From the IMG/VR virus record IMGVR_UViG_3300013121_000020, positions 192,001-256,000 of that record: a DNA stretch of 64,000 bases; one strand, written 5' to 3'. Below, one piece after another: positions 17,946 to 23,538 of this stretch. The DNA is from a virus. Taxonomy: Duplodnaviria > Caudoviricetes. The notes beneath the pieces were generated by a model, which was given only the letters and a program-made list of their open reading frames with translations, was not told where the DNA came from and made no database searches. Numbering within the stretch: the stretch's first letter is position 1; every line of letters begins with the position of its first letter. The translations under genes and the position numbers were made by a program.

Positions 17946-18363
17946 ATTCAAGGTTTTTAACACTCACACGAGCGAACCAATCGCCATCATTGAAATGGAT
18001 GATAGTCTACTTCATCCAGATGCTGGTATACTTGATCATAGTGACCACACACTACGACCAATCAAGAATGGTAGCATTTATACATTATTGCCGATTGATG
18101 ATCGGGCGATTTCGATTATGAATCAATTGCGTGATGCTTACGATACTATTGATAGTAAACCGTCTAAAACATTGCACAATCATTTCAATAAACTTGATAT
18201 GTTAGTTCAAACTGTTTCTATGTTGTTTAATGATGTGGAATATATCATAGTAGAAAGTGCTGCGGATATTGAAAGCATTATTAATCCTAAATCAGATTAT
18301 CCTCACAAAAAAGTGAAATATAATGTATTTACTGATATTATTCAAAAATTATCTGATTCTTGA
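17935..18363 (+). CDS. Hypothetical protein
   Basis: 142-aa ORF. Confidence 0.55.
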   Translation: MLHKFKVFNTHTSEPIAIIEMDDSLLHPDAGILDHSDHTLRPIKNGSIYTLLPIDDRAISIMNQLRDAYDTIDSKPSKTLHNHFNKLDMLVQTVSMLFNDVEYIIVESAADIESIINPKSDYPHKKVKYNVFTDIIQKLSDS

Positions 18364-18906
18364 TAACTTCTTAATATATGATTCTTTGATTGTTCCATTT
18401 CTCATTTTGTTTATGGTTATTGGGGAAAGAACGTCTACTTTCCCCCGATTTTCTTCAAACTCATCTAAACGCTCATCGATCGTTTCAGGTGTATATTTTG
18501 TGGTTGAATTTAACGCAGCTTTAATTGGCATCCCATAATTGTCTAACACTTCTACATATTCCCACCATGGTGCCTTTGTAATTTCCCATAGGTCTGAGGT
18601 TTCATCGCATGGCAAGTTAATATATTGGTTTGAAGACAGCAATTGATCTATTTCTAATTTGTCGGATATAAGATCACTTGCTCCAAATACTGCAACTAAA
18701 TATGTGTCGTGTTGAGTTCCAATATCGGGCAGTTTTGCCATTATGTTCATTAAACGTCTATCACGCATTACATGCTGTATTCCCATATCTTCAACACGAA
18801 GATCTACCATACTACCACGGATTGGCCGCGTATATTTATTATTCTTACGTGCGAATAATACAATTTCTTTTGAGATATGTGGGAATTCTAATAATATCAT
18901 ATTCAC
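18349..18906 (-). CDS. Hypothetical protein
   Basis: 185-aa ORF with AAGGAG RBS. Confidence 0.6.
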   Translation of the reverse strand: MNMILLEFPHISKEIVLFARKNNKYTRPIRGSMVDLRVEDMGIQHVMRDRRLMNIMAKLPDIGTQHDTYLVAVFGASDLISDKLEIDQLLSSNQYINLPCDETSDLWEITKAPWWEYVEVLDNYGMPIKAALNSTTKYTPETIDERLDEFEENRGKVDVLSPITINKMRNGTIKESYIKKLSRIR

Positions 18907-19027
18907 TCCTTTTTTATATTTTTATCCGAAACAATGTAATCAAATATACTTGCGTTTGTTGTGATCACTATAGACGTATTTAAGATGCAGACACGAACCA
19001 ATGCGATGCTTGGTGTGTCATTAAATC

Positions 19028-19096
19028 AACCGCCTCAAACTTGAGAAACATACACTCATTTTGCCAGAGAAGAAGGTTTCTCTAACTTAGGCGGTT
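19028..19096 (+). ncRNA. Short Y-RNA-like RNA (candidate)
   Basis: AACCGCCT-CAAAC-TTGAGAAAC...GTTTCTCTA-ACTT-AGGCGGTT; same internal-loop motif as 19588..19713. Confidence 0.6.
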
Positions 19097-19100
19097 AATT

Positions 19101-19221
19101 GGGGGTCTAGGTTTTATTGCTTTCTGACTTTGACTAGCAATAGTCACAAACTAGAAAAGCATACAAACAACGGTAATTGCACCCACAAGGTGCATACCTG
19201 GTTCGAATCCAGGGACCCCCG
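19101..19221 (+). ncRNA. tRNA-like RNA (acceptor and T arm, no canonical D or anticodon arm)
   Basis: GGGGGTC/GACCCCC acceptor, CCTGG-TTCGAAT-CCAGG T arm, extra hairpins TGACTA/TAGTCA and TGCACC/GGTGCA. Confidence 0.6.
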
Positions 19222-19235
19222 CTTAGGTAATAAAG

Positions 19236-19541
19236 ATGTGGCGAACTGCTGAAGAAATCCTTGACGCCTTTAAGGTTACTGATTACGTTCATCAGCACCA
19301 CGCTTATAATTCAGGGGAGACCATCGGCTTTATTGATCGAGATGGTAGCGCTATTTGGTGGAGGCTTCATCCTGGATCGTTTTGGTATTTTGATGGACGT
19401 ACCGATGCTGGTTTCCTTCATAAGCAGACGCGCGAAACTGGCATTTGGCGATGCTGGTGGAAACGAAGAGAACGACTCGGTATTGATCAGCCGGTAAGTG
19501 TTAAAATGATCGATTTCGCAGTAGGGCCAGTGCTCAACTAA
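19236..19541 (+). CDS. Hypothetical Trp-rich protein
   Basis: 101-aa ORF between the RNA elements. Confidence 0.5.
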   Translation: MWRTAEEILDAFKVTDYVHQHHAYNSGETIGFIDRDGSAIWWRLHPGSFWYFDGRTDAGFLHKQTRETGIWRCWWKRRERLGIDQPVSVKMIDFAVGPVLN

Positions 19542-19585
19542 GCCTCATAAGCTTGGAATGTTAGGTGCGACACCTAATACTGCGA
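19517..19585 (+). tRNA. Atypical tRNA with CAT anticodon (Met/Ile2)
   Basis: CGCAGTA/TACTGCG acceptor, short D arm GGGC-CAGT-GCTC, CTAAGC-CTCATAA-GCTTGG anticodon arm, TTAGG-TGCGACA-CCTAA T arm. Confidence 0.55.
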
Positions 19586-19587
19586 CT

Positions 19588-19713
19588 GTCCGTTCCAAAC
19601 GTAATGAGCGTACAAACAATTTGCCTAATTGGTAAGGCAAGACTTTTCCAGTCTTAATACTGGTTCAATCCCAGTATTGTTACGTTGCTCATTAGACTTG
19701 AACGGACTTTTTT
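19588..19713 (+). ncRNA. Y-RNA-like RNA with an embedded tRNA-mimic domain
   Basis: GTCCGTTC/GAACGGAC terminal stem plus U6 tail, CAAAC/ACTT bulged helix, TAATGAGC/GCTCATTA stem, then D arm GCCT-AATTGGTA-AGGC, AAGAC/GTCTT arm, T arm ACTGG-TTCAATC-CCAGT. Confidence 0.7.
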
Positions 19714-19724
19714 AGGATAATACA

Positions 19725-19940
19725 ATGGCTCAACTTCACATTCGATTTGACGGTAGATCAATTGACATTGATCAGGAAAATATTGATGTCGGTCCGTTCA
19801 GCAGCGACGATCAAATCAGACGCGCAGTTGCTCAACATCTCAGTGTGCCAGAAGTAAAACTTCAAGCATTTGTCATTGATCGCAATTCTGAAACAGGAAA
19901 CATGACATTACGTCCAGAAGCCGTATTCGGTATTGCGTAA
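19725..19940 (+). CDS. Putative ubiquitin-like (beta-grasp) protein
   Basis: 71 aa, beta-beta-alpha-beta-beta pattern, C-terminal RPEAVFG-IA; same operon as E1 and JAB. Confidence 0.6.
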   Translation: MAQLHIRFDGRSIDIDQENIDVGPFSSDDQIRRAVAQHLSVPEVKLQAFVIDRNSETGNMTLRPEAVFGIA

Positions 19941-19982: not shown

Positions 19983-21452
19983 ATGGAACAAGATATTCGT
20001 ATAAATATTCTCAATACGCTACTAACCACACCACATCGTGAAATTTCGAATTTATATCCTGTTCACGTTGATATGTGTAAACAAGATCCATTGTTTTATA
20101 TGCGACTTGCTGCGTGGTATGTCAGCAATGGTGAAGTACGCGACCATAAAGAAGCATTTATTGTTACACTTTGCACAAGCAATTTTGATCAACATCGAGA
20201 TGTTGGTCTTGCTCTTCTACGTGAATTACCACCATATCAAGTAGTTCGTATTGTTGATTTCATCAGTGGACGCAAGAATGTAAAAATAAAAGGTCATGTA
20301 ATTGTAAATTATGGGTTGGGCAAACCAATTCCAAGATCTATGCGCACTGAAATTGTAAGATATTTGAAAGAAAGAGAAGCTGATGATGCGTGGTTCGATA
20401 GTGCAGTTTCTACTGCAAAGAAGCATGTAAAGAGATTGTATGCACTTTTACATGTTGCTCCATCAGAACGGGCACAAAAAATATTGTTTGATAATCAACC
20501 ACCACCAACAAGCAAACAATATGCAATTAAAACTCTGAGTAACGCAAAAACACCAATAGAACAAGCCAAGATAATTATCGAAAATAAGATTCCATATAGA
20601 GTAGCATCAACCATAATTGATGCTATAACACCAACCGTTATGGTTGCACTCATAGAAGTAATGAGTTCACAAGAGCTTATTAATAATATAGAATCATTAC
20701 GTAGGCGTGGAGCATTTGATAATCCTGAGATTAAATCACTTATTGAAAAGAAGTTAGATAGCGCGAGAACCAATAAACGAGTGTCTGCGCTTAAAGCGTC
20801 TGAAGCGGCTAAAGCTTCAGACGTATCAGATGATATTAAACAAAAACTGAATGAAGTAGCTGATACTCAAATAAAATCAAAAGGTCGCATTACCGTATCG
20901 ACTGCATTGTTGGTTGACAAATCAGGATCAATGGCTCAAAGCATAGAACTTGGTAAGCAGATCGCTGCTGCTATCTCAGCGGTTATGGATGCACCATTGT
21001 TCGTGTTTGCGTTTGATACATGGGCACACCCAATTATCGCAAATGGTTCAGATTTAGAATCATGGCAAAAAGCTTTTAAGGGCATTAGTGCTGGTGGCGG
21101 CACTAGTTGCGGTGTGCCATTGACATACATGATGCATAAGCAAATCGCTGTAAATCAAATCATCATAGTCACAGATGAAAGAGAGGTTAATCCACCGGCA
21201 TTTATTCCAGCATTGCAAGCATATTGTAAGACTATGAATGTTGATCCAAATGTTGTTATTGTTAAGACTGTTGATGCTGATAATATGATTGAAACCCAAG
21301 CAAAAAATGCTGGAATTATGGTTGATACGTGGCAATTTAACGGCGATTATTATTCTGTTCCTAATCTTATTAAATTCTTATCAAAATCAGGAAAATTTAA
21401 TTTAATGATGGATATTATGGAGTATCCATTACCAGTGCGTAAATTAGCGTAA
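19983..21452 (+). CDS. Ro60/TROVE-like protein with a C-terminal vWA domain
   Basis: Helical N-domain with DPLFYxxLAAW and MSxxELINNIxxL; vWA MIDAS LLVDKSGSM, GGGTSC, IIVTDE. Confidence 0.75.
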   Translation: MEQDIRINILNTLLTTPHREISNLYPVHVDMCKQDPLFYMRLAAWYVSNGEVRDHKEAFIVTLCTSNFDQHRDVGLALLRELPPYQVVRIVDFISGRKNVKIKGHVIVNYGLGKPIPRSMRTEIVRYLKEREADDAWFDSAVSTAKKHVKRLYALLHVAPSERAQKILFDNQPPPTSKQYAIKTLSNAKTPIEQAKIIIENKIPYRVASTIIDAITPTVMVALIEVMSSQELINNIESLRRRGAFDNPEIKSLIEKKLDSARTNKRVSALKASEAAKASDVSDDIKQKLNEVADTQIKSKGRITVSTALLVDKSGSMAQSIELGKQIAAAISAVMDAPLFVFAFDTWAHPIIANGSDLESWQKAFKGISAGGGTSCGVPLTYMMHKQIAVNQIIIVTDEREVNPPAFIPALQAYCKTMNVDPNVVIVKTVDADNMIETQAKNAGIMVDTWQFNGDYYSVPNLIKFLSKSGKFNLMMDIMEYPLPVRKLA

Positions 21453-21488: not shown

Positions 21489-21779
21489 GTGAATATTACA
21501 ATATCACAACACGCCATACAAAGATGGGTCGAAAAATGTGCGATGTATGGCGATGAAGGATGGAAAGAAATTTATGACGCATTTATTAAATCTAAGAAAT
21601 TAAAGTATAATGATCCATGTCCGATTTGCGTGAAAGGATCTAACATCGATATCTATCATTATCAACCTAAAAATGCCTATTTTGTTGTTGATAGATTAAA
21701 GATGGTGTTAATTACGATTATTGTGCCATATGCTAACGGAGTTAAGAGTGGATATTCTAGACAAAATAGCAAGAATTGA
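21489..21779 (+). CDS. Small protein with an SxHAxxR motif (DUF4258/RelE-like RNase fold?)
   Basis: ITISQHAIQRW...YFVVD..VLITII; GTG start assumed. Confidence 0.4.
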   Translation: MNITISQHAIQRWVEKCAMYGDEGWKEIYDAFIKSKKLKYNDPCPICVKGSNIDIYHYQPKNAYFVVDRLKMVLITIIVPYANGVKSGYSRQNSKN

Positions 21780-22578
21780 ACAAGATTTCTTCTCTTCACA
21801 TTTTATTAGTCCAACAATTCGTGGTCAACCAATTCGTGTTAGAATATCTGGCATTGTAATGAATTTTATGGTTGATGAGCCATTTAATGGGTGGGGTATA
21901 TTTCGACCAATAAATGGATTGACTGCAAAATTTGTTCGTGAACCGACTATGAGCGAAAAACGTGCATATTTGAATTTATTTCCCAGCATGCACTTGATTG
22001 TCTATCGTAAAATAAACAATATATGGTTTGGTATATTATCGAATAGATCAGATAGGCGATTTAGAATAGATGGATTCATACCTATCCATTTGGCAAATGA
22101 TATTGAATTATTTGATATGGTTTGTGTGCGATATGATGGATCAACATGTTGGTTTGATTCACCAAGTGACCACTATGATCCATCGATTTCTATATATCTG
22201 CGTAACCAATTAAATAAATTCGCTGATAATATCGAATATCCTGGAATAAGTCCAGAATTTTATGATGCATATATGGTGGCCTATGGGGTGGCTGCGGCGG
22301 CAGATACCACGTTAAAGAAAGATCGAATTGAAGAAAGATTAAAATCTGCTTTACATCGGGCTGGTGCCATATATAAGAGTTATTCGGAACGTTCTGATGC
22401 ATATACAGTAGAATATGTTGTCAATGGTGAGAACTATAAATCAATAGTGTCAAAAGATAATTTGAGCGTGCAGTCAGCTGGTATTTGTTTGTCTGGTGAT
22501 GATAAAAAATTTGATCTTCAGAGTTTGATTGGTGTTATTCGTGAAGGACAAAGTCTAAATGCTATTGTGAGAGTTTAA
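21730..22578 (+). CDS. Uncharacterised protein, candidate E2-like enzyme
   Basis: C-terminal SAGICLSGDDxxFDLQSLIGVIRE; lies between the Ro60 and JAB genes. Confidence 0.5.
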   Translation: MLTELRVDILDKIARIEQDFFSSHFISPTIRGQPIRVRISGIVMNFMVDEPFNGWGIFRPINGLTAKFVREPTMSEKRAYLNLFPSMHLIVYRKINNIWFGILSNRSDRRFRIDGFIPIHLANDIELFDMVCVRYDGSTCWFDSPSDHYDPSISIYLRNQLNKFADNIEYPGISPEFYDAYMVAYGVAAAADTTLKKDRIEERLKSALHRAGAIYKSYSERSDAYTVEYVVNGENYKSIVSKDNLSVQSAGICLSGDDKKFDLQSLIGVIREGQSLNAIVRV

Positions 22579-22958
22579 TGAACGAAGAAGGGTGGGTATT
22601 GATTAGACGTTTTTGGCGTGGGTTTTGGCTTGCGCAACGTCACATTTTGTCAATCGGTAAGCCAACGTGTGTCGAGATAGCTCACGAATGGGCTTTGAAA
22701 CGCGAAGAAACACACGGAGACGTATGCGGCTTTCTACACACTCATCCTTCATGGGCGGCTGTGCCAAGCAATCGTGATGATTATACAATGCGATCTTGGG
22801 TATTGTGTTTTGGGAAGCCATTGCTATGTGCGATTGATGGTGTAGATGGATTGCGTGGATATTGGTATAAAACAGATGATGGTCCACCAGTAGAACAAAA
22901 AATTTTTAGGATTCCATTCAATATCATTGTAGGAAAACGTTTTCATGGTTTCAAGTAA
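22578..22958 (+). CDS. JAB/MPN+ (JAMM) metallopeptidase
   Basis: N-terminal Glu (NEEGWVL) and GFLHTHP-x7-S-x2-D (HTHPSWAAVPSNRDD). Confidence 0.85.
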   Translation: MNEEGWVLIRRFWRGFWLAQRHILSIGKPTCVEIAHEWALKREETHGDVCGFLHTHPSWAAVPSNRDDYTMRSWVLCFGKPLLCAIDGVDGLRGYWYKTDDGPPVEQKIFRIPFNIIVGKRFHGFK

Positions 22959-23538
22959 TATAAAGATTATGGTTTGTGGGATTGGGGCTATTGGCAGTAA
23001 TCTAGTAGATTCACTTGCGCGTCAAGGATTTAGAAAAATATTAGTACTTGATAAAGATCGAGTTGAAAGACGAAATATCAGCACGCAGATATATGGTGAA
23101 AATCAAATTGGGTATTTAAAAACTCAAGCGTTGAAAACTACAATATTTAGGAATACTGGCATAGAGATTGATACCATTTGCAAAGAATTAACCGCAACAA
23201 ATTCTAAATTATTAAAACAAGTTCATTTAGTTGTTGATGCATTTGATAATTCCGCATCACGTAAATTAGTTCAAGACGCATGTCGTTTACATAATATTAA
23301 ATGTATTCATGTTGGCTTATCTTCTGGTTATGGTGAAGTGTGTTGGGATGAGAAGTATAGAGTTCCAAATGATGTTGGTCGAGATGTGTGTGAAGACCAA
23401 TTTTCACGCAATCTTATTTCAATAACTGTTGCTGTTGCTTCTGAAGAAATAATTGATTTTTGCATATCAAATAAACCACGTATTGGAAATTGGACAATAA
23501 CATTAAAAGATCTTGTGATTAGTCGTCTCAATGTGTGA
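22945..23538 (+). CDS. E1/ThiF-family adenylyltransferase
   Basis: VCGIGAIGS, LDKDRVERRNISTQ, G..K..AL, VVDAFDNSASR, Cys in RDVCE. Confidence 0.9.
   Translation: MVSSNIKIMVCGIGAIGSNLVDSLARQGFRKILVLDKDRVERRNISTQIYGENQIGYLKTQALKTTIFRNTGIEIDTICKELTATNSKLLKQVHLVVDAFDNSASRKLVQDACRLHNIKCIHVGLSSGYGEVCWDEKYRVPNDVGRDVCEDQFSRNLISITVAVASEEIIDFCISNKPRIGNWTITLKDLVISRLNV

What the first reader, a model, noticed from the sequence alone, without database searches (positions are those of the whole stretch)
19028..19713. Two Y-RNA-like RNAs sharing a bulged-C CAAAC/ACUU helix, one carrying a whole tRNA mimic
Seen: 19028-19096 and 19588-19707 have unrelated stem sequences but the same architecture: 8-bp terminal stem, CAAAC, second stem, RTACA ... 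second stem', ACTT, terminal stem'. This amounts to built-in covariation around a fixed motif. The second RNA ends in U6 and its loop is a cloverleaf (D loop with GG, T loop TTCAATC, TTC-centred 7-nt loop). Established (from memory): the Ro60 site of human Y1 is GGCUGGUC-C-GAAG.../...CACUU-GACUAGUC-UUU, i.e. a bulged C opposite ACUU, and bacterial YrlA RNAs mimic tRNA. Here the Ro stem extends the acceptor stem, whereas in YrlA it replaces the anticodon arm, so this may be a new Y RNA topology.
Basis: partly seen in the sequence, partly recalled or inferred. Interest (0 to 1): 0.85.

Follow-up and report, generated by a model that had tools for sequence, protein, structure and literature searches.

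The report
Phage Y-like RNAs beside Ro60-like gene
Two small structured RNAs (with a third between them) just upstream of a very divergent Ro60-type gene in a 354-kb phage belong to a large, apparently undescribed family of Y-RNA-like molecules that share one conserved protein-binding "handle", often carry tRNA-shaped heads, and sit in an operon with ubiquitin-like tagging genes.

Summary
Both RNAs are real, at the stated coordinates, and far beyond chance. A covariance model built only from other genomes finds exactly these two sites in the 64-kb window (53.1 and 37.7 bits).

They share a fixed-geometry handle: stem 1, a C-C/A-N-A-C-N loop, an 8-bp stem 2, then N-UACAAAC; on the 3' side stem 2', R-ACUU/C and stem 1'. 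A model of this handle finds 225 copies in 96 homologous loci, all on the gene's strand, with strong compensatory covariation.

The adjacent 489-aa protein has the full Ro60 fold, although Pfam's TROVE model misses it.

RNA2 encloses a cloverleaf (Rfam tRNA 41 bits) with a shortened anticodon loop, so it is a mimic, not a decoder.

A third RNA (19101-19221) is a free-ended tRNA-like molecule with the same handle, circularly permuted, in its D loop.

The family is not YrlA: it has no CGAA motif and no match to any Rfam family except tRNA. The "new topology" claim is only partly right. Deinococcus Yrn1 is a partial precedent, and relatives show four topologies.

Ro60 binding is inferred, not shown.

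This scan has already met the same cassette in at least 18 other genomes. I found no paper describing it.

The parts
19028..19096 (+). RNA1, a handle-only Y-like RNA (type A1). Stem 1 19028-19035/19089-19096; loop CAAACU 19036-19041; stem 2 19042-19049/19076-19083; A-UACACUC 19050-19057; A-ACUU 19084-19088.
   Evidence: Fold z -4.0. R2, a model built from other genomes only, gives 37.7 bits, E 3e-7. Covariation of type A1 is in alignment A4.
19101..19221 (+). Third RNA, not part of this finding's text (type B). It is a free-ended tRNA-like RNA: acceptor 19101-19107/19214-19220, T arm 19197-19213, and a 6-bp arm with a 5-nt loop. The same handle is circularly permuted and inserted in the D-loop region: stem 2 19118-19125/19153-19160, G-ACUU 19126-19130, stem 1 hairpin 19131-19146, CAAACU 19147-19152, A-UACAAAC 19161-19168.
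   Evidence: Fold z -5.9. R3, a model built from 19 RNAs of other phage loci, gives 66.1 bits, E 8e-13; the next hit is 20 bits.
19588..19713 (+). RNA2, a handle plus a complete cloverleaf in normal order (type A2). Stem 1 19588-19595/19700-19707; CAAACG 19596-19601; stem 2 19602-19609/19687-19694; G-UACAAAC 19610-19617; G-ACUU 19695-19699; U6 19708-19713.
   Evidence: Fold z -6.7. R1 gives 51.5 bits and R2 53.1 bits; RNA2 is in neither seed.
19614..19683 (+). tRNA-shaped domain inside RNA2. U8, A14, G18G19, A21 and the T loop UUCAAUC are kept. The acceptor is 6 bp plus an A.A, and its 5' strand comes from the conserved UACAAAC. The anticodon loop is shortened.
   Evidence: Rfam tRNA 41.2 bits, with deletions in the anticodon loop. 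ARAGORN calls tRNA-Glu UUC.
19725..19940 (+). Ubiquitin-like small protein (71 aa, ends ...AVFG-IA). Homologues end at the Gly.
   Evidence: tblastn finds it on the same strand in 57 of 96 loci. L002 and L003 read ...AVFG-stop.
19983..21452 (+). Ro60-like protein: an alpha-helical ring plus a vWA domain with an intact MIDAS (DKSGS at 312-316, T374, D398).
   Evidence: AF2 pLDDT 86. Foldseek's top 11 hits are all Ro60/Rsr/phiLo Ro60, full length, TM 0.58-0.69. Pfam sees only vWA_Ro60. The Pfam TROVE model finds nothing in the genome.
21721..23538 (+). The rest of the conserved operon: a 285-aa protein (21721-22578), a JAB peptidase (22578-22958) and a ThiF-type E1 (22945-23538).
   Evidence: Pfam, PADLOC and NCBIfam. 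tblastn finds them on the same strand in 54, 29 and 42 of 96 loci within 3-kb flanks.

Best explanation
RNA1, RNA2 and the RNA between them are the RNA subunits of a divergent Ro60-type ribonucleoprotein encoded by the adjacent operon.

Shown: all three carry one conserved 'handle' of fixed geometry. It consists of a closing stem, a 6x5-nt internal loop (5' C-C/A-N-A-C-N opposite 3' R-A-C-U-U/C), an 8-bp second stem whose top reads RAGC/GCUY, and a single-stranded UACAAAC.

Inferred: this handle is the docking site for the Ro60-like ring, by analogy with the bulged helix of Y RNAs.

The variable part is the effector module. It is nothing much in RNA1, a complete L-shaped tRNA mimic in RNA2, and a free-ended tRNA-like body in the middle RNA. 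It probably presents a tRNA shape to tRNA-binding host or phage factors, as proposed for YrlA.

The RNAs are probably made as one or two precursors on the operon strand. They would be released by tRNA-type processing and, for RNA2, by termination at its U6.

The Ubl/E1/JAB genes of the same operon presumably act on the particle or on what it captures. That step is pure inference.
For: - Family membership without circularity: models built from other genomes hit the three window RNAs at 53.1, 37.7 and 66.1 bits. No other hit in 64 kb comes near them: R2 gives none at E<=10, and R3's next best is 20 bits, on a true tRNA.
- Association with the gene: model R1 finds 225 hits at E<=1e-3 in 96 loci fetched through the protein alone. 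All are on the protein's strand, in about 78 of the 96 loci.
- Structure: type A2 has 93.8% of cells paired against about 40% when slid, 26 of 30 pairs with double changes, and 0 of 500 shuffles as high. Type A1 has 87.7% and 14 of 14. Type B has 91.5% and 15 of 19.
- The protein has a full-length Ro60 fold with a conserved MIDAS.
- The operon Ubl, Ro60-like, 285-aa protein, JAB, E1 is conserved.
- The embedded cloverleaves share the acceptor 5' strand but carry 13 different anticodons in 15 cases. This argues for mimicry, not decoding.
- The loop variant C-A-N-A-C is confined to 5 loci and present in all copies in the window (3 of 3) and in L005 (8 of 8), even though their stems are unrelated. 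This fits a locus-specific partner.
- About half of type-A RNAs are followed by a U tract, against 3-7% background.
Against: - There are no expression or binding data.
- No promoter stands out above chance.
- The reverse strand folds equally well.
- The bacterial Ro-binding motif GNCGAA/CGAA is absent, and no Rfam family other than tRNA matches at E<=10.
- The protein is only 12-17% identical to solved Ro60s. Its RNA-contact residues were not examined.
- The handle is linked to the operon as a whole, so another operon protein could be its partner.
Confidence: 0.72

Rival explanations
1. The handle is real, but it is recognised by a different operon product (the conserved 285-aa protein, the E1, or the Ubl machinery) or serves as a processing signal for a double-strand or junction-specific RNase. 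The Ro60-like protein would then bind something else, for example misfolded RNA ends.
For: The handle co-occurs with the whole operon, not with the Ro60-like gene alone. It lacks the CGAA motif of known bacterial and phage Y RNAs.
Against: The loci were fetched through the Ro60-like protein alone, and about 78 of 96 carry the handle, while JAB and E1 were detected in fewer loci within the flanks. The overall form (terminal stem, C after a C-G closing pair, ACUU before the stem's G) parallels the Ro site of human Y1.
Confidence: 0.17
2. RNA2 and the middle RNA are genuine tRNA genes with unusual precursors. The flanking stems only guide processing, and the mature products decode.
For: Rfam tRNA scores 41 bits here and up to 70 bits for embedded relatives. 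M. smegmatis YrlA is cut by RNase P and receives CCA.
Against: Both window RNAs have 5-nt 'anticodon' loops. The embedded cloverleaves start with A from the fixed UACAAAC whatever their anticodon: 12 of 15, against G in 79 of 120 free tRNAs, with 13 anticodons among the 15. RNA1 has the handle and no tRNA at all. No CCA is encoded, and no CCA-adding enzyme was found in the phage.
Confidence: 0.06
3. The stems are chance hairpins, terminators or repeat elements with no specific function.
For: RNA2 ends in a stem plus U6. The reverse strand folds as well.
Against: Independent covariance-model hits, strand-exclusive conservation across phyla, and compensatory changes in every helix.
Confidence: 0.01

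Closest known systems
Bacterial YrlA (Rsr/Ro60-associated Y RNA; Chen et al. 2014, PMC4201824; Wang et al. 2018, bioRxiv 10.1101/312249)
   Same: It is encoded beside a Ro60-type gene. It is modular: a terminal protein-binding stem plus a tRNA-like effector domain that keeps the tRNA tertiary nucleotides. There are several RNAs per locus. Relatives of the window RNAs (type A3, e.g. L061:1803-1936) have the T arm, closed acceptor hairpin, D arm order of YrlA.
   Different: It has no GNCGAA(N)G / CGAA motif; the handle is C-C-N-A-C / R-ACUU plus UACAAAC. In RNA2 the tRNA is not permuted and the handle extends the acceptor stem. In the middle RNA the handle sits in the D loop and the acceptor end is free. 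The partner protein is missed by Pfam TROVE. The operon carries Ubl, JAB and E1 genes instead of RtcB/RtcA.
Deinococcus radiodurans Yrn1
   Same: Both strands of the Ro-binding helix are conserved. The D-like, anticodon-like and T elements are in normal order, so the Ro stem stands at the acceptor position. The anticodon-like loop is shortened (6 nt).
   Different: Yrn1's tRNA likeness is partial: it has no full D arm and no variable region. RNA2 is a complete cloverleaf that passes the Rfam tRNA threshold. The handle sequence differs.
Metazoan Y RNAs (e.g. human Y1)
   Same: The 5' and 3' ends pair. A C follows the closing C-G pair on the 5' strand, ACUU precedes the G of the 3' strand (Y1...GGUC-C-GAAG / ...GC-ACUU-GACU), and there is a 3' U run.
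   Different: No Rfam family other than tRNA matches at E<=10. The internal loop is larger (6x5 nt). There is an extra invariant UACAAAC. There is no Pol III context.
Thermus phage phiLo phiRo60 with Yrl1/Yrl2 (PMC12135203)
   Same: A phage-encoded Ro60 with Y-like RNAs just upstream of its gene.
   Different: The phiLo RNAs were picked by the CGAA motif. The phiLo protein is a recognisable TROVE protein, and no Ubl module is reported there.
Circularly permuted tRNA genes / tmRNA
   Same: tRNA bodies occur in permuted order (types A3 and B). The middle RNA has a free acceptor end, like tmRNA.
   Different: There is no BHB splicing motif and no mRNA-like reading frame, and the handle is shared with RNAs that have no tRNA part.

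Membership tests
Y RNA in the functional sense (RNA partner of a Ro60 protein) | Encoded next to a Ro60 (TROVE ring + vWA) gene | tested here: met
   Full-length Foldseek matches to 1yvp, 2nvo, 9kop and 9l5y, TM 0.58-0.69. RNA2 ends 270 nt upstream of the gene's start.
Y RNA in the functional sense (RNA partner of a Ro60 protein) | The 5' and 3' ends pair into a stem with a conserved internal loop or bulge | tested here: met
   Every stem 1 pair and most or all stem 2 pairs covary: stem 1 8 of 8 and 6 of 6, stem 2 6 of 8 and 8 of 8. The loop letters are invariant in MAFFT alignments.
Y RNA in the functional sense (RNA partner of a Ro60 protein) | Physically bound by the Ro60 protein | not testable with these tools
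   Needs RIP or EMSA.
Rfam families other than tRNA (any Y RNA or YrlA model the library holds) | Covariance-model match | tested here: not met
   Only RF00005 (tRNA) matches at E<=10 in 18880-19760. Only tRNA matches at gathering score in the window and in 20 related loci.
YrlA (Chen et al. 2014) | GNCGAA(N0-1)G motif on the 5' strand of the Ro-binding module | tested here: not met
   There is no CGAA in either handle. The family consensus is C-C-N-A-C-N.
YrlA (Chen et al. 2014) | Permuted tRNA-like domain (T arm, closed acceptor hairpin, D arm), joined to the Ro module through the anticodon stem | tested here: not met
   RNA2 has the order acceptor, D, anticodon, T. The middle RNA has free acceptor ends. 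Some relatives do have the permuted order.
tRNA (RF00005) | Covariance-model score above the gathering threshold | tested here: met
   41.2 bits against 29.
tRNA (RF00005) | Seven-nt anticodon loop with U33 and a purine at 37; a 7-bp acceptor with a free, processable end | tested here: not met
   The loop is aligned with deletions, and position 37 would be C. There is an A.A at 1-72. The acceptor continues into stem 2.
Handle-bearing RNAs of the Ro60-like/Ubl cassette (family defined here and in earlier notes of this scan) | Match to a covariance model built from other genomes, with the fixed spacing C-N-N-A-C-N / 8 nt / N-UACA... and 8 nt / R-ACUY | tested here: met
   R2 gives 53.1 and 37.7 bits; R3 gives 66.1 bits.

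The most novel reading that the evidence does not exclude
The particle is an RNA-baited tagging device. The tRNA-shaped heads lure a tRNA-binding factor (for a phage, perhaps a host anticodon nuclease, a modification enzyme or a decay enzyme) onto the Ro60-like ring. The operon's Ubl/E1/JAB machinery then covalently marks that factor, the ring itself, or even the free 3' end of the class-B RNA. This would be a direct mechanistic link between Ro-type RNA surveillance and ubiquitin-like conjugation.
Probability: 0.12. Interest if true: 0.92.

Novelty: new variant of a known kind. Interest (0 to 1): 0.74.

Why it matters
Ro60/Y RNA particles are known from animals and from a subset of bacteria and phages. 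Surveys that start from Pfam TROVE proteins, as Chen et al. 2014 did, would miss this clade, because the Pfam TROVE model does not detect it.

Here a clade invisible to that model has its own RNA partners. The protein family numbers at least 1,970 proteins and more than 566 genome loci, chiefly Planctomycetota, and also occurs in huge phages. The RNAs show textbook covariation and a handle that recalls the animal Ro site more than the bacterial one.

The same handle is grafted onto tRNA bodies in four ways: alone, at the acceptor end, at the variable region of a permuted tRNA, and inside the D loop of a free-ended tRNA. This gives a natural series for asking what the tRNA mimicry of Y RNAs is for.

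The invariable company of Ubl, E1 and JAB genes suggests an unexplored link between RNA surveillance and ubiquitin-like modification, and one that phages carry with them.

Tried and rejected
- Megablast of the locus against GenBank phages found nothing. A tblastn search found only one unannotated 595-kb record, LR756511.1.
- The search for related loci with the single protein found nothing. It needed the alignment.
- Rfam at E<=10 gave only tRNA.
- The sigma-70 promoter and terminator scan was no better than shuffles.
- I tested for a conserved third helix pairing the AAAC of UACAAAC with a GUUU near stem 2'. Only 16 of 148 cases pair fully, mostly type A2 where it is the acceptor stem, so it is not a general feature.
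- R3 hits of 30-55 bits in bacterial loci come mostly from the 3' half of one type-A RNA followed by the 5' half of the next. I do not count them as class B.
- PADLOC, NCBIfam and PHROGs add nothing on the Ubl, the 107-aa, 285-aa or 101-aa proteins.
- Burroughs & Aravind, NAR 2016, and Sim et al., Annu Rev Microbiol 2020, are not held, so I cannot exclude a mention there.
- Papers on Bil/Bub ubiquitin-like operons and the 2006 survey of prokaryotic Ubl systems do not mention TROVE or vWA.
- I did not test whether the 285-aa protein is an E2. That is a separate finding.

Full report
**Setting.** The window is bases 192001-256000 of a 354-kb IMG/VR phage record, judged 98% complete. The finding lies in a 0.8-kb non-coding or barely coding stretch. 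Upstream is a divergently transcribed gene (18349-18906, minus strand). Downstream is a co-directional operon:
- a 71-aa protein (19725-19940);
- a 489-aa protein (19983-21452);
- 107-aa and 285-aa proteins;
- a JAB peptidase (22578-22958);
- a ThiF-type E1 (22945-23538).

RNA1 (19028-19096) and RNA2 (19588-19713) have unrelated stem sequences but identical anatomy and spacing. On the 5' side each has an 8-bp closing stem, then C-A-A-A-C-N, an 8-nt strand of a second stem, one nucleotide, and UACA(AAC). On the 3' side each has the other strand of stem 2, a purine, ACUU, and the closing stem.
- Both fold much better than dinucleotide shuffles (z -4.0 and -6.7). Their reverse complements fold just as well, so energy alone does not give the strand.
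- RNA2 ends in U6.
- Its interior (19614-19683) passes the Rfam tRNA threshold (41.2 bits against 29) and is called tRNA-Glu(UUC) by ARAGORN.
- U8, A14, G18G19, A21 and a UUCAAUC T loop are present.
- The anticodon loop is aligned with deletions: a 5-bp stem with a 5-nt loop, or a 4-bp stem with C at position 37. Pair 1-72 is A.A.

**A third member.** Between the two RNAs, at 19101-19221, lies a 121-nt RNA. It has a 7-bp G-rich acceptor stem, a canonical T arm (GGUUCGAAUCC) and a 6-bp arm with a 5-nt loop. It carries the same handle in circularly permuted form where the D loop should be. The order is stem 2 strand, G-ACUU, stem 1 closed by GCAA, CAAACU, stem 2 strand, A-UACAAAC. In the whole genome, only the three clustered sites carry the full handle.

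**The neighbouring protein is a Ro60.** Pfam sees only the Ro60-type vWA domain, and the Pfam TROVE model finds nothing anywhere in the genome.
- An AlphaFold2 model from 30 homologues (pLDDT 86) matches Xenopus, human, Deinococcus and Thermus-phage Ro60 over its full length. TM is 0.58-0.69 at 12-17% identity, and these chains fill every one of the top 11 places.
- The MIDAS residues are invariant.
- The family is large: at least 1,970 proteins at E<=1e-3, 16 IMG/VR loci and more than 566 genome loci. The genome loci are mostly Planctomycetota, with Chloroflexota, cyanobacteria and deltaproteobacteria.
- Only one GenBank phage record holds it, unannotated.

**The RNAs are a conserved family tied to that gene.** The upstream regions of the 96 fetched loci are full of the same element.
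- Model R1, built from 29 handle-only RNAs, finds 225 hits at E<=1e-3 in 638 kb searched on both strands. Every hit is on the strand of the Ro60-like gene, in about 78 of the 96 loci.
- Model R2, rebuilt without any window sequence, finds RNA2 (53.1 bits, E 4e-11) and RNA1 (37.7 bits, E 3e-7) as the only hits at E<=10 in the window.
- Model R3, built from 19 free-ended RNAs of other phages, finds the middle RNA at 66.1 bits. The next hit, a true tRNA, scores 20 bits.
- A strict anchor-based scan gives 184 distinct handles in 59 loci with the same spacing.

**Covariation.**

| Type | Cells paired | Pairs with double changes |
|---|---|---|
| A2 (handle + cloverleaf, 19 sequences) | 93.8% (about 40% with partners slid) | 26 of 30 |
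| A1 (handle only, 29 sequences) | 87.7% | 14 of 14 |
| B (19 relatives plus the window RNA) | 91.5% | 15 of 19 |

- For type A2, 146 cells carry changes on both sides, and no shuffle of 500 reaches the observed values.
- The loop letters (the first C, the A, UACAAAC, ACU) are invariant in the MAFFT alignments.
- The top of stem 2 is nearly constant (RAGC/GCUY), and the pair closing stem 1 is C-G in 155 of 184 handles.

**Four architectures share the handle**:
- A1: the handle alone. In bacterial loci it often lies just after the Ro60-like stop codon.
- A2: the handle on the acceptor end of a complete cloverleaf.
- A3: the handle on a circularly permuted tRNA with the order T arm, closed acceptor hairpin, D arm, anticodon arm. 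This is the commonest bacterial form and has the YrlA-like order.
- B: a free-ended tRNA-like RNA with the handle in the D loop. It occurs essentially in phage loci.

The window holds one each of A1, B and A2.

**The heads are mimics, not decoders.** Of 15 cloverleaves that ARAGORN finds inside handles, 12 start with A, supplied by UACAAAC, and they carry 13 different anticodons. Free tRNAs in the same loci start with G in 79 of 120 cases. In this phage both tRNA-like bodies have 5-nt loops.

**Further hints.**
- About half of type-A RNAs are followed by a U tract within 12 nt, against 3-7% background. This suggests defined 3' ends.
- The rare loop variant C-A-N-A-C is confined to 5 loci. It is carried by all copies in the window (3 of 3) and in L005 (8 of 8), although their stems are unrelated (shuffle p<2e-4). 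This is what a locus-specific binding partner would produce, but it is not proof.
- The operon Ubl, Ro60-like, 285-aa protein, JAB, E1 is conserved on one strand.
- The phage also encodes an RtcB ligase about 95 kb away. No PolyA_pol-family CCA-adding enzyme or Rnl2-family (PF09414) ligase was found.

**Comparison with what is known.**
- YrlA RNAs carry GNCGAA(N)G on the 5' strand. They have a T / closed acceptor / D domain whose anticodon stem leads to the Ro module.
- The phiLo Yrl RNAs were likewise picked by CGAA.
- The window RNAs lack that motif, and no Rfam family other than tRNA matches them at E<=10. I therefore do not file them as YrlA.
- Their 3' strand (R-ACUU-G) and the C after the closing pair do parallel human Y1, whose ends I confirmed from published primers.
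There the stem-loop between the D-like and T arms stands in the anticodon position and has a 6-nt loop. Yrn1 is not a full cloverleaf.
- I met no description of the free-ended type B in anything I read.

**Literature.** Full-text searches combining TROVE or Ro60 with ubiquitin-like, JAB/JAMM, ThiF, phage or Planctomycetes found no description of this cassette or its RNAs.
- The jumbo-phage survey only notes that a few phages have a TROVE protein.
- Two possibly relevant papers are not held.
- Earlier notes of this scan report the same cassette in at least 18 other genomes and also found no paper. One of those reports was later marked as partly fallen; I do not know which part.

**Verdict.** The interpretation as Y-RNA-like partners of a Ro60-type protein is well supported by context, homology and covariation. 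Binding and expression are untested. In kind this is a new variant of Ro60/Y-RNA particles, with a new handle, new tRNA graft topologies and a new operon partner (ubiquitin-like conjugation).

Noticed in passing
window 19516-19585 (+): A fourth cloverleaf-like RNA without a handle. It has a 7-bp acceptor (CGCAGUA/UACUGCG), a stunted D arm, an anticodon-like arm with loop CUCAUAA, and a T arm with an odd UGCGACA loop. Fold z is -3.0. It overlaps the end of ORF 19236-19541, and neither ARAGORN nor Rfam calls it.
   Followed up: partly
window 19236-19541 (+): A Trp-rich 101-aa ORF between the RNAs. It has no tblastn match in any of the 96 related loci and no Pfam, PHROG, PADLOC or NCBIfam hit. 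It may be spurious or phage-specific.
   Followed up: partly
L019:4545-4638, L027:4581-4676, L026:4625-4719, L036:4583-4673, L033:1728-1819: In bacterial loci the best-scoring handle-only RNA (66-72 bits) lies immediately after the stop codon of the Ro60-like gene. This position is not used in the window.
   Followed up: no
window 19725-19940; L002:2072-2296; L003:2400-2606: The Ubl of this phage ends ...AVFG-IA, whereas homologues stop right after the Gly. Here the C-terminal Gly would need to be exposed by trimming, perhaps by the operon's JAB.
   Followed up: no
own genome C1:115950-117044 (outside the window): The phage encodes an RtcB-family RNA ligase (139 and 63 bits, one 405-aa frame), about 95 kb from the Ro60-like operon. 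No PolyA_pol/CCA-adding or Rnl2-type ligase domain was found.
   Followed up: partly
whole genome; protein 19983-21452: Pfam TROVE (PF05731) does not detect this Ro60 clade at all, while it does detect Deinococcus and Bacteroides controls. Surveys that start from TROVE-domain proteins would therefore miss the whole family.
   Followed up: yes
L003:200-1520, L012:60-1090, L008:620-1450: In several related phage loci the cassette sits directly downstream of long arrays of ordinary tRNA genes (Rfam 50-70 bits).
   Followed up: no
L002-L017 class-B RNAs, e.g. L002:1729-1867, L008:2138-2279: Class-B RNAs in other phages keep canonical 7-nt anticodon-like loops (xU-NNN-AA) with many different triplets. 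They are usually followed after 4-7 nt (CUUU...) by a type-A RNA, which suggests polycistronic precursors cut by tRNA-processing enzymes.
   Followed up: partly
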